A DNA stretch of 64,000 nt from Alphaproteobacteria bacterium (lineage in GTDB: Bacteria; Pseudomonadota; Alphaproteobacteria; SPJN01). Under the pieces are notes generated by a model. That model was not told the origin of the DNA. It saw only the letters and a program-made list of their open reading frames with translations, and ran no database searches. This document shows positions 6,526 through 12,286 of this stretch, piece by piece. The first letter of the stretch is position 1. Each line of letters begins with the position of its first letter. The position numbers and the translations under genes are program-made. The DNA is taken from the NCBI GenBank assembly GCA_965229935.1, contig CBDDKB010000002.1, forward strand, positions 772,165 to 836,164, given 5' to 3'.

Positions 6526-8247
6526 ATGGCACGCATATTGCGCGGGTTGCTGATCATACTGGCTATGGTCATTGTTGTTGCGGGGCTTGGCGGTTTTGCC
6601 CTTTATCGTCAGTGGAACCCTGCGCCGCCTGCGGCACAGGTTTTCTATAATGGGCCTGTACTGACCATGAATGCCGATAATGACATTGCCGATGCAGTCC
6701 TGGTGAAAGGCAATGCTATCGCGATGGTTGGCGCGACAGATGATGTGCTGGCAGCAGCGCCCGAAAGTGCCATCCGCCATGACTTAAAGGGCAGGGCGCT
6801 GATGCCGGGCTTTATTGATGCCCATGGTCATTATCCCGGTTGGGGGGTGATGAGTGTCGCGGTCAATCTCTCAAGCCCTCCCGTCGGGAACGTCCGCACC
6901 ATAGACGAGATTAAGGCCCTGATCGCGGCCAAGGCTGCCACTGCCGCGCCGGGCGCGTGGATCGTTGGCATGGGCTATGACGATACATTGATTGCCGAAA
7001 TGCGCCACCCAACCGCGGCTGACCTTGATGAGGTTGCCCCAGATAATCCGGTCGGGATCCTGCATGTGTCAGGTCACATGTTGGTTGTGAATTCCCGCGC
7101 CATGCAGGAAATGGCGGTTGATAAAAACACACCTGATCCTGAGGGGGGCGAGATTGTCCGTTATGAGGACGGCTCGCCGACCGGGCTGATGAAGGAAACG
7201 GCAACCTATATCTTCCAGCCCAAATTGTTGGGCTTTGGCCCCGCGGATATTTTAACGCTGTTGCAGGCGGGGAATGACGATTATCTCTATAAGGGGGTAA
7301 CAACCGCGCAAAATGGCCTGTCAGACAAAATGATGTTTGAACCCTTGGGCTGGGCATCCCGCGTCGGCTTTATCCCGATCCGCATCGTCTCTTTGGTTGA
7401 TGCGGAATTCGCGCTGGAATCGATGCAGACAGGCACGCTGTTTGATTTTGAAAGCGACAAGTATCATGTGGCGGGGGTTAAAATCGTCACCGATGGGTCC
7501 ATTCAGGGCTATACTGGGTATTTGGGCGAACCGTATTTTGTTCCCCATACAAGCCATGGCCCTGACTATCGCGGCTATCCGATCTATCAGGCAGATGACT
7601 TGAACGATCTTGTTTCACGTTCAATGCAGGCAGGATTGCGGCCCTATTTGCATGGCAATGGCGATGCATCGATTGACATGATTTTGGATGCGGTGGAGTT
7701 GGGGCAGCAGGCTGCGCCCACTATGCACGATGCGTGGCCTGTGATCATTCATGCGCAGATGATGCGGTCCGACCAGATCGCACGGGCAAAGGCGCTTTCT
7801 GTCAGCCCCAGTTTTTTCAACGCCCATGTCTATTATTGGGGGGATCGACATCGGGATATTTTTATGGGGCCAGAACGGGCCGCGAGGATGAGCCCGATGA
7901 ATGAGGCTTTGATGGCAGAGCTACCCTTTACGTTGCATCTCGACACGCCGATTGTGCCGATGGACCCTTGGGTCATGATCTGGTCTGCGGTTGAACGGCA
8001 AACATCAAGCGGCAATGTGTTGGGCCCGGATCAACGGATCAGCCTGATGCAAGCCATTCGCGGCACGACGATTGACGCTGCATGGCAGGCAGGGCTTGCG
8101 GACAAGACAGGTAGTATCGAGCAGGGCAAATGGGCTGATCTGATCATTGTTGATCAAGACCCGCGCACCGCAACAGACTTGCGGGCGATCAAGACCATCG
8201 CAACATTTGTCGGTGGCGTGGAACATTATCGGGCAGGCGCGAACTGA
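6526..8247 (+). CDS. Amidohydrolase family 3 (YtcJ-like metal-dependent hydrolase) with an N-terminal membrane anchor or signal
   Basis: N-terminal hydrophobic helix, the PGFIDAHGHY metal-binding HxH motif, and a length of about 570 aa typical of the amidohydrolase 3 family. Confidence 0.85.
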   Translation: MARILRGLLIILAMVIVVAGLGGFALYRQWNPAPPAAQVFYNGPVLTMNADNDIADAVLVKGNAIAMVGATDDVLAAAPESAIRHDLKGRALMPGFIDAHGHYPGWGVMSVAVNLSSPPVGNVRTIDEIKALIAAKAATAAPGAWIVGMGYDDTLIAEMRHPTAADLDEVAPDNPVGILHVSGHMLVVNSRAMQEMAVDKNTPDPEGGEIVRYEDGSPTGLMKETATYIFQPKLLGFGPADILTLLQAGNDDYLYKGVTTAQNGLSDKMMFEPLGWASRVGFIPIRIVSLVDAEFALESMQTGTLFDFESDKYHVAGVKIVTDGSIQGYTGYLGEPYFVPHTSHGPDYRGYPIYQADDLNDLVSRSMQAGLRPYLHGNGDASIDMILDAVELGQQAAPTMHDAWPVIIHAQMMRSDQIARAKALSVSPSFFNAHVYYWGDRHRDIFMGPERAARMSPMNEALMAELPFTLHLDTPIVPMDPWVMIWSAVERQTSSGNVLGPDQRISLMQAIRGTTIDAAWQAGLADKTGSIEQGKWADLIIVDQDPRTATDLRAIKTIATFVGGVEHYRAGAN

Positions 8248-9270
8248 TCAGGGGGTAACCGGGTGCAGCGTGGTCCTGATAAGGTCATCGTCGCGCAATA
8301 GCTGCCGCAAATCAGCAGAGCCTTGTTCCACCAATTGGTGTTGTTTATCTATGATAGCTGTTTGCCAGCTTGGGCGTGCTTTCAGACGATCAAAATAGGC
8401 AGCCACATTGCTTAGATCACTGTGCGACTTGTAATAATCAAGCCAGCCAGTTTCGTCGATGCGCAGCAAGGCACTGGCGAGCGTGATGTCTGCCAATGTG
8501 AATTGATCGCCCAATATCCAGTCGCCGGCTGATTGGCCAAGCGCATCGTCCAGCTTTTTCAAATGATTGCGTGCTGCATCACGTGCGCCACCCACAAGGT
8601 CAGTCAGGGGCTTTGCACGCATCAAACCGCGCAGGCCGAACAGCTTGGCAGCGGTGAAAAAGAAGGGGCGTTTCTTGTCAGGATGAAATAGCAGCCCCGG
8701 CACCAGTTTGCCGAAGCTGATATACTGCATCATGGTCACAAAGATCGGCATGGTCAGGGCGGGGACGCAAGGCCCCAATCGGCCTTCCTGATTACCCAAA
8801 GGGTCGTCATTAGTGATGTTGCAATAGTCAAGCCAGAGGTTCATCTCTGCCAGCTTATCAGGATCGGTCGGGGTCAGTTGCGGCGCATCGGCTGCTGCGT
8901 GGGCGGCGGCATATTTCAGAATATCGTCTGATTCATAGATCGGATTGCCGTTATGAACCAGTACAGGCAATATACCAGCCGGATTGACCTTTAAGTAGGC
9001 TGGGCTGATGGTTTCATACTGGCCTGTTTCAACCAGATCTATGGGCCTATGGGTATAGGTGATCCCCAATTCTGCCATGGCAAGCCGTGCCTTGCGCGAA
9101 CAGTGGGAGAATGAGTTGCTGTAAAGCTCAAACTCATCCTCATAGGGCAGGGTAATATCAGTGTGAATGCCACCAGCCATCGGGTGCGATTTGCGGCGTG
9201 ATTTTTCAACCCCATACCAGACCACAAATATGGCGAGTATAACCAGTGTGATGAGCAGCCCTGTGGACAT
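8248..9270 (-). CDS. Glutathione S-transferase family protein (Cys-type active site) with an N-terminal transmembrane anchor
   Basis: N-terminal TM helix, a thioredoxin-like GST N-domain (ELYSNSFSHCSRKARLAMAELGI...ILPVLVHNGNPIYESDDI) and a helical C-domain. A strong SD (GAGGGAGG) precedes the ATG at 9270. Confidence 0.7.
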   Translation of the reverse strand: MSTGLLITLVILAIFVVWYGVEKSRRKSHPMAGGIHTDITLPYEDEFELYSNSFSHCSRKARLAMAELGITYTHRPIDLVETGQYETISPAYLKVNPAGILPVLVHNGNPIYESDDILKYAAAHAAADAPQLTPTDPDKLAEMNLWLDYCNITNDDPLGNQEGRLGPCVPALTMPIFVTMMQYISFGKLVPGLLFHPDKKRPFFFTAAKLFGLRGLMRAKPLTDLVGGARDAARNHLKKLDDALGQSAGDWILGDQFTLADITLASALLRIDETGWLDYYKSHSDLSNVAAYFDRLKARPSWQTAIIDKQHQLVEQGSADLRQLLRDDDLIRTTLHPVTP

Positions 9271-9380
9271 GATAGCCTCCCTCTTTTCAGCCCTACCTAA
9301 GAAGGATGATGGCTGATTACAAGGAAAAGCGGGGCGTGCAATTTGGTAAATCTGGAGAATTTACGCGCGTAATGCGCCGC

Positions 9381-9425
9381 AAAAAGGCCGGATAGTTGGC
9401 CAAAATGGCAAGATACCCGGCCTTT
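9381..9425 (-). terminator. Intrinsic terminator downstream of the outer membrane protein gene
   Basis: On the minus strand, an AAAGGCCGG/CCGGCCTTT stem with a long loop is followed by a TTTTT run. Confidence 0.45.
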
Positions 9426-9436
9426 GCGTTGTCGAA

Positions 9437-10447
9437 TTAGAAGGCTGCCTGCAGCCCGATGGTCAGCATATCATCCATCTTTAGCTGCGGGCCGTTCAGG
9501 TCCTGATAGACGGTCTTTTCATACTCAACCGCGATGCGGTGGCCTTTCAGAGCAGTGCCGGGGATCACATAGTTGAGGCCAATACCAAGATCGACCCATT
9601 CGCCGCCATGATTGTCGGGGTCCGTGGTCGGTGCGGGACGAGCCAGAATTTTCCTGTCTGCACCATGAACGGCGCCGGCTGATCGGCCTGTAACGCGACC
9701 TGTCACTGAAATAGACTCTGACAGCAGATGATTGACATAACCTGTCAGCTTGACCCTATTGCCAAGGCGGTAATCATTGTCGTTGGTCCCGGTACGGAAG
9801 ACCGTATCAAGCTGGGCGCCAAACTTGGTGTTGGGCCCTGTTATGTCCAAAAAGTCGGTCCAAGTTACACCGGCAAGAATGTCATAGGTGCCGGAGCCGA
9901 GCTGCATCGGGTAGGGCAAGTGACCGGGGATTGTGTCTTTCTCATCAATAGACCCGGTGGGAAGTGACACGCCGATTTTTAGATGCGCGGTGTCTGTCAG
10001 CTTTTGCAGGCCCGTTACTTTAACGTCGCCCCAGCCCTTTGACTTGGCAACGAACACAGTCCCGTTTGGGCGCTGATGATCCATGCTGTTTTCCAAATAA
10101 GGTGCCATGACCATCAATGTCAGATCATTAGACCAACCATACATCATGCCGAACATGTGCATGTCTGTTGTCATTCTTAACGGTACAACGGGGAAGCCAA
10201 AATTTGTACGTACCGACGCGGGGCTAAGATCTGTTGTGCCGTTGCGATTGTCTTCCATCTCCATCCGCATAAAACGGTAAGAGACCATCCATTGTCCTTC
10301 ACCGTGGCGGTGATCACCCATGACGCCAATGGGGGCATGGCCAAGTGGGCTGGGCAGATGATCTTCATGCGCGAAGGTAGCAGATGAGAAAAGCAGTGAG
10401 AAAGCGGCGGCAGCCAGCGCTGCGCCCGTGCGAGATTTAAGAGTCAT
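9437..10447 (-). CDS. Outer-membrane beta-barrel protein with a Met/His-rich N-terminal region (CopB-like / MetA-pathway-transporter-like)
   Basis: Signal peptide (AAFSLLFSSATFA-HEDH). The mature N-terminus is rich in His/Met clusters (HEDH, GDHRHGEG, MRMEMED, DMHMFGMMYGW). Alternating beta-strand character, ending in the C-terminal ...GLQAAF typical of outer membrane barrels. Confidence 0.6.
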   Translation of the reverse strand: MTLKSRTGAALAAAAFSLLFSSATFAHEDHLPSPLGHAPIGVMGDHRHGEGQWMVSYRFMRMEMEDNRNGTTDLSPASVRTNFGFPVVPLRMTTDMHMFGMMYGWSNDLTLMVMAPYLENSMDHQRPNGTVFVAKSKGWGDVKVTGLQKLTDTAHLKIGVSLPTGSIDEKDTIPGHLPYPMQLGSGTYDILAGVTWTDFLDITGPNTKFGAQLDTVFRTGTNDNDYRLGNRVKLTGYVNHLLSESISVTGRVTGRSAGAVHGADRKILARPAPTTDPDNHGGEWVDLGIGLNYVIPGTALKGHRIAVEYEKTVYQDLNGPQLKMDDMLTIGLQAAF

Positions 10448-10486
10448 TTGAATTGTCCTGTGTTTAACGGATTTGGATAGTGGTCG

Positions 10487-10909
10487 TTAAACAGAGGGGG
10501 GTGGCGCTCGTCCGTGATAGGCCTGTGGGGCAACAGCCGTGCCCCGGTCTATATCAGCGCTAAAATAGGCAACTAACCTGATTTCCAAACTGGGCAAGGC
10601 TGCAACAGGTGCCGCAACTGGCGCGACCGGCAGCAGCGAACAGCAAAGCTGGCAATCATGATCAGCGGGCAATTCGTGGTCTGACCCGTTCAGGCAAGAC
10701 GCCTGCTTGATAATCTTGTCACCTGAAACAATCTGATCGACTGAAATTGCGGGGCCGGTTTGGGCAAGAATCATCTGGCCCGACATTGTACCCTGCGCAG
10801 GCAATAATGCGCCCAAACTTGTAATTAACAGAGCAATAACAAGCACTAAGCGATTGGGGGCCGCATGGCCCTTTATGGTCCGAAATCCAGTCATAGGTGG
10901 CGCGACCAT
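10487..10909 (-). CDS. Hypothetical small secreted protein with a Cys/His cluster (C-x4-DH-x5-HDC-x2-CC)
   Basis: The ORF is co-directional and 40 nt upstream of the outer membrane barrel gene. It has a signal-peptide-like segment (RLVLVIALLITSLGALLPAQG), a CLNGSDHELPADHDCQLCCS cluster and a PVAPVAAPVAALP low-complexity stretch. The start is uncertain (10909, 10894 or 10960) and there is no clear SD. Confidence 0.35.
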   Translation of the reverse strand: MVAPPMTGFRTIKGHAAPNRLVLVIALLITSLGALLPAQGTMSGQMILAQTGPAISVDQIVSGDKIIKQASCLNGSDHELPADHDCQLCCSLLPVAPVAAPVAALPSLEIRLVAYFSADIDRGTAVAPQAYHGRAPPPSV

Positions 10910-11013
10910 ATCGGTTTGCAAAATTGGGGGCAATGACACAATTGCCGCGACCTGTGTCATGTGGAAAACTAGCGGATGCGGCTAGGTGAGTCGTGTTTTG
11001 CGAGGGAGAGATC

Positions 11014-11355
11014 ATGTCTGACAATCAAGTAGCGCCCGCGGGTGGGCAAAGCCCGACATTGCTGTATATCGGGTATGCATTGGCGATTTTTCTGCCACTT
11101 GGCGCGATCATTTTGGGGTTTGTTGCACGGAATGACTATCGCAACTCCTCCTATGACGGGCATTGTGATAATTTGATCCAGATATTTTGGGTAGGACTTG
11201 TTCTCGCGATTGCTGGCACCGTGCTGTCATTTATCGGCGTCGGCTTCTTGATCTTTATATGGTTGTTTATCTGGTACGCTATAAGAATTGTTAAAGGTCT
11301 GGTCGCCCTTAGTAAGAACGAGGCCTATGTTCCCGGCAATCCGTTCTGGTTCTAG
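11014..11355 (+). CDS. DUF4870-like small integral membrane protein
   Basis: Three or four TM helices and a YAIRIVKGL motif resembling DUF4870. A strong SD (GAGGGAG) precedes the ATG at 11014. Confidence 0.55.
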   Translation: MSDNQVAPAGGQSPTLLYIGYALAIFLPLGAIILGFVARNDYRNSSYDGHCDNLIQIFWVGLVLAIAGTVLSFIGVGFLIFIWLFIWYAIRIVKGLVALSKNEAYVPGNPFWF

Positions 11356-11410
11356 GATCACTAGAATAGCGTGAGAGTGAGCGGGACGGGACGCGCCCCG
11401 CTCAACACCT

Positions 11411-12286
11411 TTACTTGACGTGGGGTGTCACGTCTTCGTTGATCATTTGGTTGGACAGGGTGCCAAGGCCCGCGATCTCAACCTCTACCGTGTCGCCGGC
11501 TTTCAAGAATTGCGGCGGCTTCATCGCGACGCCAACACCACTGGGCGTGCCGGTAAAGATCACATCGCCTGGTTCCAGCGTCATCGCAGCGCTAAGCTCA
11601 GCGATTAGGTGATCAATCTTGAAAATCAAATGTTTGGTATTTGATTTTTGGCGCACCTCGCCATTCACACGACATTCAATATCGAGCGCATGAGGGTCGG
11701 CAATTTCATCACGCGTTGTCAGCCACGGCCCGATGGGGCCATGTGTGTCAAAGCTTTTCCCGATGGTGAATTGGGGGGACCGGAACTGCCAGTCACGAAC
11801 AGACACATCATTGCCGCAGCAATAGCCTGCAATCGCATTCAGCGCATCTTCTGGGGCGATATGGCGGCAACGATGGCCGATAACGACAACCAATTCAGCC
11901 TCATAATCAATTAAGTCACTGACGGCGGGTTTCAGTACAGTTGCCCCGGGGCCGACAATGGCGGTTGGAGGCTTGGTGAACCATGTGGCGTTTTCCGGCT
12001 TGTCCCGGCCTGTTTCTTCAACATGGTCGGCATAATTCAGCCCAACACAAAAAATCTTGCGCGGGTTTTCAACCGGGGCATGAAGCGTTACGGCGGATAG
12101 GGGGATTGTCGCCTCCGCATTGCGATCAGCTTCCTTCGCCTTCCGTCCGCTCGTGTCGCCCCAACTGAAATAGTCAATCATGTCAGTTGGGAAGTCGGGG
12201 TCATAGGCGCTTAGGTCGATAAGCTTGTCGCCCTTGACGATGCCAAGTCGTTTGCCCTTATCATCTTCAAATGTTGCAAGTTTCAT
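11411..12286 (-). CDS. Fumarylacetoacetate hydrolase (FAH) family protein
   Basis: 291 aa with an FAH-fold C-domain (GxNYxxH, EAELVVVIG, metal-binding Glu/Asp pattern). Confidence 0.85.
   Translation of the reverse strand: MKLATFEDDKGKRLGIVKGDKLIDLSAYDPDFPTDMIDYFSWGDTSGRKAKEADRNAEATIPLSAVTLHAPVENPRKIFCVGLNYADHVEETGRDKPENATWFTKPPTAIVGPGATVLKPAVSDLIDYEAELVVVIGHRCRHIAPEDALNAIAGYCCGNDVSVRDWQFRSPQFTIGKSFDTHGPIGPWLTTRDEIADPHALDIECRVNGEVRQKSNTKHLIFKIDHLIAELSAAMTLEPGDVIFTGTPSGVGVAMKPPQFLKAGDTVEVEIAGLGTLSNQMINEDVTPHVK

What the first reader, a model, noticed from the sequence alone, without database searches (positions are those of the whole stretch)
8248..11355. Accessory-looking block: membrane-anchored Cys-GST, Met/His-rich outer-membrane barrel, small secreted Cys/His-cluster protein and a DUF4870 membrane protein (possible metal or copper handling set)
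Seen in the sequence: the outer membrane barrel (9437-10447) has an unusual mature N-terminus packed with His/Met motifs (HEDH, GDHRHGEG, MRMEMED, DMHMFGMMYGW). In CopB/PcoB-type proteins such stretches bind copper.

Forty nt upstream and co-directional is a small ORF with a signal-like segment and a CLNGSDHELPADHDCQLCCS cluster. After the barrel gene there is a hairpin plus T-run terminator, so the two genes form a unit.

The flanking genes are a GST with a catalytic Cys and an N-terminal TM anchor, and a DUF4870 membrane protein. None of these products has a firm functional assignment.

The inference is a periplasmic metallochaperone-like protein paired with a Met/His-rich outer membrane channel.
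Basis: partly seen in the sequence, partly recalled or inferred. Interest (0 to 1): 0.5.

Follow-up and report, generated by a model that had tools for sequence, protein, structure and literature searches.

The report
Copper-sensing leader peptide gating a barrel
The small Cys/His-rich gene is most likely not a metal chaperone but a copper-sensing ribosome-stalling leader peptide (CruR/CutF type) that switches on translation of the next gene, which belongs to a large, uncharacterised family of outer-membrane barrels with an invariant histidine/methionine core and is a good candidate for a TonB-independent copper channel.

Summary
The sequence features are real: four ORFs, the His/Met motifs, a 39-nt gap and a terminator. 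Only two genes form a unit, the small ORF (10487-10894, 135 aa) and the barrel (9437-10447).

The small ORF has every hallmark of DUF2946/CruR/CutF copper-sensing arrest peptides:
- an export signal;
- CxxC, then 44 residues, then RAPP three residues before the stop.

The codons after RAPP plus the stop pair with the barrel gene's Shine-Dalgarno. The same design recurs, with different sequences, in 18 of 20 related loci. A ribosome stalled at RAPP would therefore expose the SD, as in CutF.

Of 81 loci, 27 (all Pseudomonadota) carry the same RAPP uORF. Other family members are fused to, or sit in an operon with, the periplasmic Cu chaperones NosL and PCuAC.

Best reading: a copper-gated, probably copper-repressed, outer-membrane copper uptake channel. 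The GST and the small membrane protein are unrelated neighbours. The direction of the regulation and copper transport itself are inferred, not shown.

The parts
10487..10894 (-). cruR/cutF-like upstream ORF (135 aa plus stop). Its product is a DUF2946-type exported leader peptide: MTGFRTIKGHAAPNRLVLVIALLITSLGALLPAQG / TM...
   Evidence: ORF listed. The start at 10894 is supported by the 135-aa orthologue in L001, by the alignment, and by the non-conservation of the 10960 ATG. DUF2946 E 0.0044, 18.2 bits, below the gathering cut-off of 23.7. 17 of 26 equivalent uORFs hit DUF2946, best E 3e-8.
10640..10654 (-). Codons for C-Q-L-C-C, the putative Cu-sensing CxxC motif. A CxxxC is also embedded in it.
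   Evidence: Read directly from the sequence. The first Cys is invariant in 26 uORFs, and CxxC is present in most. In CruR the CxxC is required for the copper response (PMC9426467).
10499..10510 (-). Codons for R-A-P-P, the ribosome arrest motif. It lies three residues (P-S-V) before the stop and 44 residues after CxxC.
   Evidence: Sequence. R, P and P are invariant and A is at least 90% conserved in 26 uORFs. In CruR the RAPP sits 3 residues from the end, 45 residues after CxxC (PMC9426467). Toeprinting puts the two Pro codons in the P and A sites (PMC12992588).
10457..10497 (-). mRNA hairpin. The 5' arm (CCUCUGUUUAACG) is the last codons plus the stop of the uORF. The 3' arm (CGUUAAACACAGG) ends in the AGG of the barrel gene's SD (AGGA, 10456-10459, 8 nt before the ATG).
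   Evidence: MFE folds. 7 pairs join the uORF tail to the SD window, against 1.0 in shuffles. The same architecture, with different sequences, is found in 18 of 20 related loci.
9437..10447 (-). Outer-membrane barrel gene (336 aa). It has a signal peptide (about residues 1-26, cleavage after the conserved A26), an N-terminal in-barrel segment GHAPIGVMGDHxHxxGE (about residues 36-52), and Met/His-bearing strands beta1-beta3.
9378..9428 (-). Intrinsic terminator (GC-rich hairpin plus U5) that closes the two-gene operon.
   Evidence: -28.5 kcal/mol, z -4.18.
10930..10951 (-). Conserved 22-nt non-coding block upstream of the uORF start. It contains the palindrome GGCAAT-N6-ATTGCC. It may be a promoter or operator; its function is unknown.
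   Evidence: 100% identical in the window, L001 and L002, within variable flanks. Inverted repeat found.

Best explanation
The unit is a two-gene operon.

Gene 1 (10487-10894) encodes an exported DUF2946/CruR/CutF-type leader peptide. While it is being translated, the ribosome arrests at the C-terminal RAPP, with the two Pro codons in the P and A sites. From there the ribosome covers the next 13-16 nt. Those nucleotides are exactly the 5' arm of a hairpin whose 3' arm sequesters the Shine-Dalgarno of gene 2.

A stalled ribosome therefore keeps the SD open, and the barrel gene is translated. When the arrest is released, the ribosome terminates, the hairpin re-forms and translation of the barrel stops. 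Copper is sensed by the CxxC motif 44 residues upstream of RAPP, as in CruR and CutF.

Gene 2 (9437-10447) encodes a 12-stranded COG4313/FapF-like outer-membrane barrel. An invariant His-rich N-terminal segment (H37, M43, H46, H48) and Met/His ladders on strands beta1-beta3 are proposed to form a copper-selective path. That would make it a TonB-independent outer-membrane copper channel that passes Cu to periplasmic chaperones.

Most likely sign of regulation: copper relieves the arrest, as in CruR, so the channel is made when copper is scarce and shut off when it is abundant.

Shown here: the motifs, their spacing, the hairpin geometry and its recurrence, the fold, the conservation, the uORF association, and the chaperone fusions.
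Inferred: ribosome arrest in this organism, copper binding, copper transport, and the sign of the response.
For: Leader peptide:
- It has an export signal, a semi-conserved Cys, then CxxC, 44 residues, RAPP and 3 residues. CruR has CxxC, 45 residues, RAPP and 3 residues, and sits first in its operon (PMC9426467).
- DUF2946 is the only Pfam family hit.
- Ribosome arrest by RAPP has been shown by toeprinting for CruR (PMC12992588).

Hairpin:
- In the window the arm that follows RAPP pairs with the SD.
- In 18 of 20 loci with an intergenic gap of 10-140 nt, at least 6 MFE pairs join the uORF tail to the SD window. The mean is 7.5, against 1.8 in shuffles of the intergenic region. The paired sequences are unrelated between loci.
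- This is the CutF-cutO design, in which a stem-loop shields the RBS and is melted by a stalled ribosome.

Association of uORF and barrel:
- 27 of 81 barrel loci have an R[AG]PP-tailed ORF directly upstream. All 27 are Pseudomonadota, about 55% of the roughly 49 proteobacterial loci by my hand count of the record titles.
- Of 5122 frames of at least 60 codons in these loci, only 32 end this way, and 27 of those are that ORF.

Barrel:
- 57 of 70 homologues hit PF13557.
- 5 His and about 11 Met are conserved in at least 63 of 70 sequences, against a mean column identity of 42%.

Link to copper supply:
- N-terminal fusions to NosL (4 proteins) and PCuAC (1 protein).
- Operons of the form uORF-PCuAC-barrel in L045 and L054.
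- No detoxification genes (CopA, Cus, multicopper oxidase) among the recurrent immediate neighbours.
Against: - The window uORF scores below Pfam's gathering threshold for DUF2946 (18.2 versus 23.7 bits).
- For the window alone the hairpin is only moderately significant: 10 of 200 shuffles reach the same tail-to-SD pairing, and the 141-nt fold has z = -2.0.
- The SD (AGGA) is weak.
- No coordinates of the model could be inspected. That the His/Met residues line the lumen rests on strand parity, and on homology with the lumen-occluding N-terminus of Pput2725.
- CruR works through Rho-dependent termination across a 162-nt intergenic region, not through a hairpin.
- CutF responds to copper with the opposite sign, so the direction of regulation is open.
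- COG4313 channels characterised so far take up hydrophobic molecules, not ions.
- Some uORFs in front of related barrels lack CxxC and have a single Cys or His runs instead, so the metal may differ between lineages.
- There are no expression or transport data for any member.
Confidence: 0.6

Rival explanations
1. Same leader-peptide and hairpin device, but with CutF logic. Copper prolongs the arrest, so the barrel is induced by excess copper. It then serves detoxification: letting periplasmic Cu leave the cell, or feeding an oxidase, as proposed for PcoB.
For: The short intergenic region (39 nt) and the SD-masking hairpin are the CutF design, not the CruR design. The uORF ends in RAPPPSV, a PPP run, and CQLCC also contains a CxxxC as in CutF. 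A multicopper-oxidase-domain gene lies about 6 kb from a homologue on a Ruegeria plasmid.
Against: The CxxC-to-RAPP spacing and position match CruR. The fusions and operons involve NosL and PCuAC, which supply Cu to enzymes rather than remove it. No Cus, CopA or multicopper oxidase genes recur as immediate neighbours. A passive outer-membrane channel cannot drive efflux.
Confidence: 0.25
2. The small ORF yields a stable secreted Cys/His metallochaperone that works together with the barrel as a protein partner.
For: It has a signal peptide and a Cys/His cluster. Co-transcription with the barrel is likely.
Against: It carries an invariant C-terminal RAPP arrest motif at a fixed distance from CxxC. 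Apart from the motifs, the sequences are poorly conserved (21% mean column identity). The homologue CruR acts in cis, is predicted to be poorly structured, and was not detected by proteomics. CutF is described as low in abundance and rapidly degraded. The hairpin coupling to the SD is not explained by a chaperone role.
Confidence: 0.08
3. The barrel is an ordinary COG4313 channel for a hydrophobic or other non-copper substrate. The conserved Met/His residues are structural, or serve a different ligand or metal.
For: The fold and PF13557 relatives. Characterised COG4313 members take up hydrophobic molecules. A distant relative on a Methylosinus plasmid sits upstream of feoB. Some uORFs carry His runs instead of CxxC, and His-only CutF-like proteins are associated with Ni/Co genes.
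Against: A profile of the family finds no solved COG4313 structure by sequence, so the His/Met core is specific to this subfamily. There are recurrent Cys-type DUF2946 uORFs, and fusions with the Cu chaperones NosL and PCuAC.
Confidence: 0.1
4. All four genes (GST, barrel, small ORF, small membrane protein) form one metal-handling set.
For: The four genes are adjacent, and the arrangement is conserved in the two closest relatives.
Against: A terminator separates the barrel from the GST. The membrane protein is transcribed divergently. GST is the downstream neighbour in only 3 of 80 loci, and DUF4190 does not appear among the 25 most frequent neighbour families. The flanks are housekeeping genes in conserved synteny.
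Confidence: 0.04

Closest known systems
CruR (Bp2923) of Bordetella pertussis, DUF2946 (Roy et al. 2022, PMC9426467)
   Same: Both are small exported peptides encoded first in an operon. Both have CxxC followed 44-45 residues later by RAPP, which lies three residues from the C-terminus. Both control a downstream outer-membrane protein gene.
   Different: CruR has a 162-nt intergenic region and acts through Rho-dependent termination. Here the gap is 39 nt, with a hairpin that masks the SD. The downstream gene is a 12-stranded COG4313-like barrel, not a TonB-dependent transporter with a PepSY_TM partner. The window peptide falls below the Pfam threshold.
CutF of Rhodobacter capsulatus, cutFOG operon (Ozturk et al. 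2022/2023 and 2025)
   Same: Both are Sec-exported leader peptides with a Cys motif and a Pro-rich C-terminal stalling motif. Both have a short intergenic region with a stem-loop that shields the RBS of the next gene and is melted by the stalled ribosome.
   Different: CutF uses CxxxC and regulates a periplasmic multicopper oxidase that is induced by copper. Here the motif pair is CruR-like, and the regulated product is an outer-membrane barrel. The sign of the response is unknown.
COG4313 / PF13557 channels (Pput2725, PDB 4rl8; SphA; TcpY) and FapF
   Different: No sequence similarity to the solved structures is detectable, and the window protein has no PF13557 hit. The invariant His/Met core is specific to this subfamily. 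Known members are linked to hydrophobic substrates or amyloid export, not to metals.
CopB/PcoB (PF05275; PDB 7pge)
   Same: Both are outer-membrane barrels linked to copper and rich in His and Met.
OprC/NosA and CrtA TonB-dependent copper transporters
   Same: Both are candidate outer-membrane routes for copper supply to cuproenzymes. Both are frequently headed by cruR-type uORFs and associated with PCuAC.
   Different: Those are 22-stranded, energy-dependent transporters. This one is a small barrel with no TonB box or plug domain, so it would act as a passive channel.

Membership tests
DUF2946 / CruR-type copper-responsive uORF | N-terminal export signal (signal peptide or N-in TM segment) | tested here: met
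   MTGFRTIKGHAAPNRLVLVIALLITSLGALLPAQG has a basic n-region, a 16-residue hydrophobic core and an A-Q-G site. All 26 aligned uORFs have a hydrophobic peak. No dedicated signal-peptide predictor was available.
DUF2946 / CruR-type copper-responsive uORF | Conserved CxxC motif | tested here: met
   C-Q-L-C at residues 103-106 of the 157-aa frame (10643-10654). It is conserved in the two closest relatives. The first Cys is invariant across 26 uORFs.
DUF2946 / CruR-type copper-responsive uORF | C-terminal RAPP motif a few residues before the stop | tested here: met
   RAPP at residues 151-154, followed by PSV and the stop. In CruR, RAPP is also three residues from the end.
DUF2946 / CruR-type copper-responsive uORF | Spacing between CxxC and RAPP conserved at about 45 residues | tested here: met
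   44 residues in the window. The range is 40-48 in the related uORFs that have CxxC. In CruR it is 45.
DUF2946 / CruR-type copper-responsive uORF | First gene of an operon of copper-related genes | tested here: met
   It lies directly upstream of the barrel and is co-directional with it. The gene on its other side is divergent. PCuAC is inserted between uORF and barrel in L045 and L054.
DUF2946 / CruR-type copper-responsive uORF | Pfam PF11162 score above the gathering threshold | tested here: not met
   18.2 bits (E 0.0044) against a cut-off of 23.7. 17 of 26 sister uORFs match at E<=0.05, best 3e-8. The window peptide is therefore a divergent member rather than a non-member.
DUF2946 / CruR-type copper-responsive uORF | Copper-dependent ribosome arrest and cis regulation of the downstream gene | not testable with these tools
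   This needs toeprinting and reporter fusions with and without Cu.
CutF-type translational switch | Stem-loop that shields the SD of the downstream gene and lies within reach of the ribosome stalled on the Pro motif | tested here: met
   The hairpin at 10457-10497 starts 7 nt after the first nucleotide of the P-site Pro codon. Its 3' arm includes the AGG of the SD. The design recurs in 18 of 20 loci, against shuffles. This is a computational result only.
CutF-type translational switch | CxxxC copper-binding motif | tested here: inconclusive
   The motif is CQLCC. It can be read as CxxC (C103, C106) or CxxxC (C103, C107). Most sister uORFs have only CxxC.
COG4313 / PF13557 outer-membrane channels | [quoted passage not shown] | tested here: met
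COG4313 / PF13557 outer-membrane channels | Match to the PF13557 profile | tested here: inconclusive
   The window protein has no hit at E<=1. 57 of 70 homologues hit, best E 1e-11.
CopB/PcoB (PF05275) | Match to the PF05275 profile | tested here: not met
   No hit for the window protein or for any of the 70 homologues.
CopB/PcoB (PF05275) | PcoB-like fold | tested here: not met
DUF4870 (the fourth gene, 10993-11355) | Match to PF09685 | tested here: not met
   E 0.17, 12.4 bits against a cut-off of 25. The best match is DUF4190, at 27.7 bits against a cut-off of 35.

The most novel reading that the evidence does not exclude
The barrel would be the founding member of a very large family of TonB-independent, copper-selective outer-membrane channels. 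The family has at least 1650 50%-identity clusters and occurs in Alpha- and Gammaproteobacteria, Cyanobacteria, Bacteroidota, Planctomycetota, Verrucomicrobiota and others. Its members would be COG4313-fold barrels whose lumen is lined by an invariant His/Met cluster. They would hand Cu to periplasmic chaperones (NosL, PCuAC). In Pseudomonadota their synthesis would be gated by a hybrid device: CruR-type sensing motifs coupled to a CutF-type SD-masking hairpin. This would fill the gap in how Gram-negative bacteria and cyanobacteria take up ionic copper across the outer membrane without TonB.
Probability: 0.45. Interest if true: 0.78.

Novelty: new variant of a known kind. Interest (0 to 1): 0.62.

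Why it matters
A 2026 paper on copper import states that the few copper-specific outer-membrane importers identified are all TonB-dependent transporters, and that otherwise only non-specific diffusion through porins is assumed (PMC12914433).

A small, passive barrel with an invariant His/Met core would be a second, widespread route for copper acquisition. Three observations point that way: it is placed under a copper-sensing arrest peptide, it is repeatedly fused to Cu chaperones, and it is present in cyanobacteria, where copper is needed for plastocyanin and cytochrome oxidase.

It would also assign a function to at least 1650 protein clusters currently labelled only 'transporter' or 'hypothetical'.

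On the regulatory side, the locus shows CruR-type motifs combined with the CutF-type hairpin mechanism. It offers 18 natural sequence variants of the same RNA-peptide switch for testing.

Tried and rejected
- Pfam and NCBIfam scans of the barrel returned nothing.
- CopB/PcoB membership was rejected.
- I looked for a conserved protein partner of the barrel among the immediate upstream and downstream genes of 80 loci. None was found beyond the uORF, and the neighbourhoods are heterogeneous.
- The simple terminator scan missed the terminator because of its long loop. Folding found it.
- Rfam gave no known RNA family in 9200-11400.
- Literature searches for COG4313 or PF13557 with copper, and for outer-membrane copper porins, found no paper on this barrel family. 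The supplements of the CruR and CutF papers that are held as text do not mention PF13557. Figures could not be read, so a mention in a figure cannot be excluded.
- The exact-sequence look-up for the window's own contig failed. The organism is known only as a relative of Hyphomicrobiales/Alphaproteobacteria MAGs.
- Plasmid hits (Ruegeria, methanotrophs) gave no decisive context.


Full report
**1. What is in the sequence**

ORF listing confirms four genes:
- a GST-fold protein (8248-9270, minus strand);
- a 336-aa protein (9437-10447, minus strand);
- a small ORF (10487-10960 at its longest, minus strand);
- a divergent small membrane protein (10993 or 11014 to 11355, plus strand).

The stop of the small ORF and the ATG of the 336-aa gene are 39 nt apart. 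After the 336-aa gene there is a hairpin of -28.5 kcal/mol (z = -4.2) followed by U5.

GC content does not differ from the flanks. The whole neighbourhood runs FAA-hydrolase, small membrane protein, small ORF, barrel, GST, amidohydrolase, SnoaL. It is collinear in a MAG whose barrel is 84% identical (L001). 'Accessory-looking' is therefore not supported.

The GST domains are real. The fourth protein is not DUF4870 (E 0.17). It matches DUF4190 weakly, below the cut-off.

**2. The small ORF is a CruR/CutF-type leader peptide, not a chaperone**

Its only Pfam similarity is to DUF2946: E 0.022 for the 157-aa form and 0.0044 for the 135-aa form, both below the gathering score.

Two experimentally studied members define what this family does:
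- B. pertussis CruR (Bp2923) is an upstream ORF with an export signal, a CxxC motif and a RAPP motif. The RAPP lies three residues from the C-terminus and 45 residues after CxxC. Ribosome arrest at RAPP allows expression of the downstream TonB-dependent transporter, and copper sensed through CxxC relieves the arrest (PMC9426467). Arrest was later shown by toeprinting, with the two Pro codons in the P and A sites (PMC12992588).
- R. capsulatus CutF is a Sec-exported peptide with CxxxC and a Pro-rich C-terminus. [quoted passage not shown]

The window ORF has all of these elements:
- a basic, then hydrophobic N-terminus ending in A-Q-G;
- a semi-conserved Cys;
- C-Q-L-C-C;
- exactly 44 residues later, R-A-P-P;
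- then P-S-V and the stop.

Its closest relatives are 135 and 138 aa long and begin at or close to the Met equivalent to 10894. The 10960 ATG is not conserved in them. The gene is therefore 10487-10894.

**3. The mRNA hairpin**

Folding the end of the uORF together with the intergenic region gives a hairpin. Its 5' arm, CCUCUGUUUAACG, consists of the last Pro, Ser and Val codons, the stop, and two more bases. Its 3' arm, CGUUAAACACAGG, ends in the AGG of the barrel gene's AGGA Shine-Dalgarno, which lies 8 nt before the ATG.

With the first Pro codon of RAPP in the P site, the arm starts at +7. It lies largely inside the roughly 15 nt that a ribosome covers downstream of the P site (established knowledge of toeprints). 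A stalled ribosome would therefore hold the SD open.

I tested whether this is chance by looking at relatives. The test used the 20 loci (the window included) that have an R[AG]PP uORF and a gap of 10-140 nt to the barrel gene. In 18 of them the MFE fold has at least 6 pairs between the uORF tail and the SD window. The mean is 7.5 pairs, against 1.8 when the intergenic region is shuffled. The paired sequences are different in each lineage, for example CUCCGAAA/UUUCGGAG, CCUGUUGGUCUGA/UCAGAUCAACAGG and UCCUUUAAAG/UUUUAAAGGA.

This is conservation of an architecture rather than of a sequence. For the window alone the support is moderate (10 of 200 shuffles reach the same pairing). No Rfam family matches.

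**4. The barrel**

- Neither Pfam nor NCBIfam recognises the window protein.
- It has more than 4,000 homologues, and 1650 50%-identity clusters at E<=1e-30.
- It is present in at least 593 GTDB species representatives. These include Alpha- and Gammaproteobacteria, many cyanobacteria, Planctomycetota, Verrucomicrobiota, Bacteroidota, Gemmatimonadota and others.
- 57 of 70 homologues hit PF13557 (the COG4313 family). None hits CopB, PF05275.
- An AlphaFold2 model built on 70 sequences is confident (pLDDT 90.9, pTM 0.85).
- Pput2725 is a 12-stranded barrel whose N-terminal segment occludes the lumen.

H46, H48, M54, M64, M92, H97 and M102 are in 70 of 70 sequences. H37, M43, M62, M96, M98 and M122 are in 69 of 70. 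M114 is in 68, H124 in 66 and M112 in 63. The mean column identity is 42%. Only the HEDH stretch right after the signal peptide is variable.

The motif GHAPIGVMGDHxHxxGE lies in the segment preceding strand 1 (pLDDT 84-91). That is the position of the lumen-occluding segment in Pput2725. The conserved Met residues occupy alternate, same-parity positions of strands 1-3, together with R58. I infer a His/Met-lined path inside the barrel. I could not check coordinates, so this step is an inference.

**5. What links the barrel to copper**

(a) The uORF. In 27 of 81 loci an ORF ending in R[AG]PP plus 2-9 residues lies directly upstream and co-directional. Most have gaps of 24-132 nt, and where CxxC is present the CxxC-to-RAPP spacing is 40-48. 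All 27 are Pseudomonadota, about 55% of the proteobacterial loci. Among 5122 frames of at least 60 codons in these 804 kb, only 32 end that way, and 27 of those are this ORF. 17 of 26 such uORFs hit DUF2946. Cyanobacterial loci lack the uORF. This agrees with the reported absence of RAPP uORFs in that phylum.

(b) Domain fusions. Among 50 family members with long N-termini, four carry an N-terminal NosL domain, one a PCu(A)C domain and one a YtkA-like domain. NosL and PCuAC are periplasmic Cu(I) chaperones. The N-terminus of an even-stranded outer-membrane barrel is periplasmic (established knowledge), so the chaperone would sit at the inner mouth of the channel.

(c) Operons. L045 and L054 have the order uORF, PCuAC, barrel.

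(d) Neighbours. Apart from these, the neighbours are heterogeneous. There is no recurrent detoxification gene, and GST appears in only 3 of 80 loci. The uORF and barrel are therefore a self-contained module.

**6. Mechanism proposed**

Shown:
- the motifs, their spacing and the hairpin geometry;
- recurrence of the design;
- the fold and the conservation;
- the associations with the uORF and with copper chaperones.

Inferred:
- The ribosome arrests at RAPP and opens the SD hairpin, so the barrel is translated only while arrest lasts.
- The exported or nascent CxxC segment senses copper and changes the duration of the arrest.
- The barrel is a passive, copper-selective channel.

The sign of the response cannot be read from the sequence. 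CruR and CutF, both DUF2946, respond to copper in opposite ways. I favour the CruR sign, in which copper ends the arrest and so represses the barrel. The motif pair and spacing are CruR-like. In addition, the fusions and operons point to copper supply for cuproenzymes, and a passive channel suits uptake. I rate this at about 2:1 over the Cu-induced alternative.

**7. Comparison with what is known, and novelty**

The regulatory peptide is a new, divergent member of a known kind (CruR/CutF). The combination of CruR-type motifs with a CutF-type SD-masking hairpin is a variant.

The regulated gene is a COG4313-fold barrel with an invariant His/Met core. I found no description of it as copper-related. 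A 2026 paper from the CruR group states that the few known copper-specific outer-membrane transporters are all TonB-dependent. The published lists of genes downstream of DUF2946 or RAPP uORFs name the following, and not this family, in the text I could read:
- TonB-dependent receptors;
- PepSY_TM;
- PCuAC;
- Sco;
- YcnI;
- CopC;
- MbnPH-like genes;
- AhpC_TSA;
- RND efflux components;
- HupE/UreJ;
- NosZ/NosR;
- DsbA and thioredoxin-domain proteins.

**8. Verdict**

It is wrong about the role of the small ORF, about the kind of barrel, and about the flanking genes. The overall finding is a new variant of a known kind, with a plausible and testable reading of higher novelty: a widespread family of TonB-independent copper channels.

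Noticed in passing
window 10930-10951 (minus strand): A 22-nt block, GTCGCGGCAATTGTGTCATTGC, is 100% identical in the window and in the two 84%-identity relatives. The surrounding non-coding DNA upstream of the uORF start is variable. The block contains the palindrome GGCAAT-N6-ATTGCC, which could be an operator or promoter element adding transcriptional control.
   Followed up: partly
P0052, P0235 and other long family members; L084:371-1849: Barrel family members are fused at the N-terminus to periplasmic copper-chaperone domains. Among 50 long members there are 4 with NosL, 1 with PCuAC and 1 with a YtkA-like domain.
   Followed up: yes
L037, L051, L053, L057, L059, L062, L073, L074 (about 300-1500 nt upstream of the barrel, opposite strand): Loci that lack the RAPP uORF (six are recorded as Gammaproteobacteria or as the genus Zhongshania) carry instead a divergently transcribed histidine kinase of about 420 aa. 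Six of these have a 6-TM PilS-like membrane sensor domain. This may be an alternative way of regulating the same barrel.
   Followed up: partly
L083:5780-7996 (Methylosinus sp. C49 plasmid pMSC49c): A distant relative of the barrel (30% identity) forms the C-terminal part of a 738-aa outer-membrane protein. Its gene lies directly upstream of feoB/feoC and near a PepSY_TM gene and a TonB-dependent receptor. Related barrels may therefore serve other metals, such as iron.
   Followed up: no
Cyanobacterial loci, e.g. L007, L008, L012, L015, L038; proteins P0072, P0098: Cyanobacterial family members have N-terminal extensions of 100-150 residues with no Pfam match, and no uORF. The His/Met core is fully conserved in them.
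   Followed up: partly
window 8248-9270 and 11411-12286: The membrane-anchored GST has an S-x-C-S-[RK] motif, and its best NCBIfam similarity is to maleylacetoacetate isomerase, far below the cut-off. An FAA-hydrolase-family gene lies 2 kb away. This could be a link to aromatic or homogentisate-type metabolism, or a coincidence.
   Followed up: no
L046 and L068; L029, L036, L050, L067 (uORFs upstream of the barrel): Some RAPP uORFs in front of barrel homologues lack CxxC. They carry either a His run with a single Cys (HHHHHHSDDIDFERCE) or a TPCPFFKS motif. The sensing chemistry, or the metal sensed, may differ between lineages.
   Followed up: no
L082 (Ruegeria sp. YS9 plasmid, 6815-7921): A barrel homologue on a Ruegeria plasmid is annotated as two CDS ('transporter' plus 'hypothetical protein'). 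It sits between ccm cytochrome-c maturation genes and a cluster of cytochrome c and multicopper-oxidase-domain genes.
   Followed up: no
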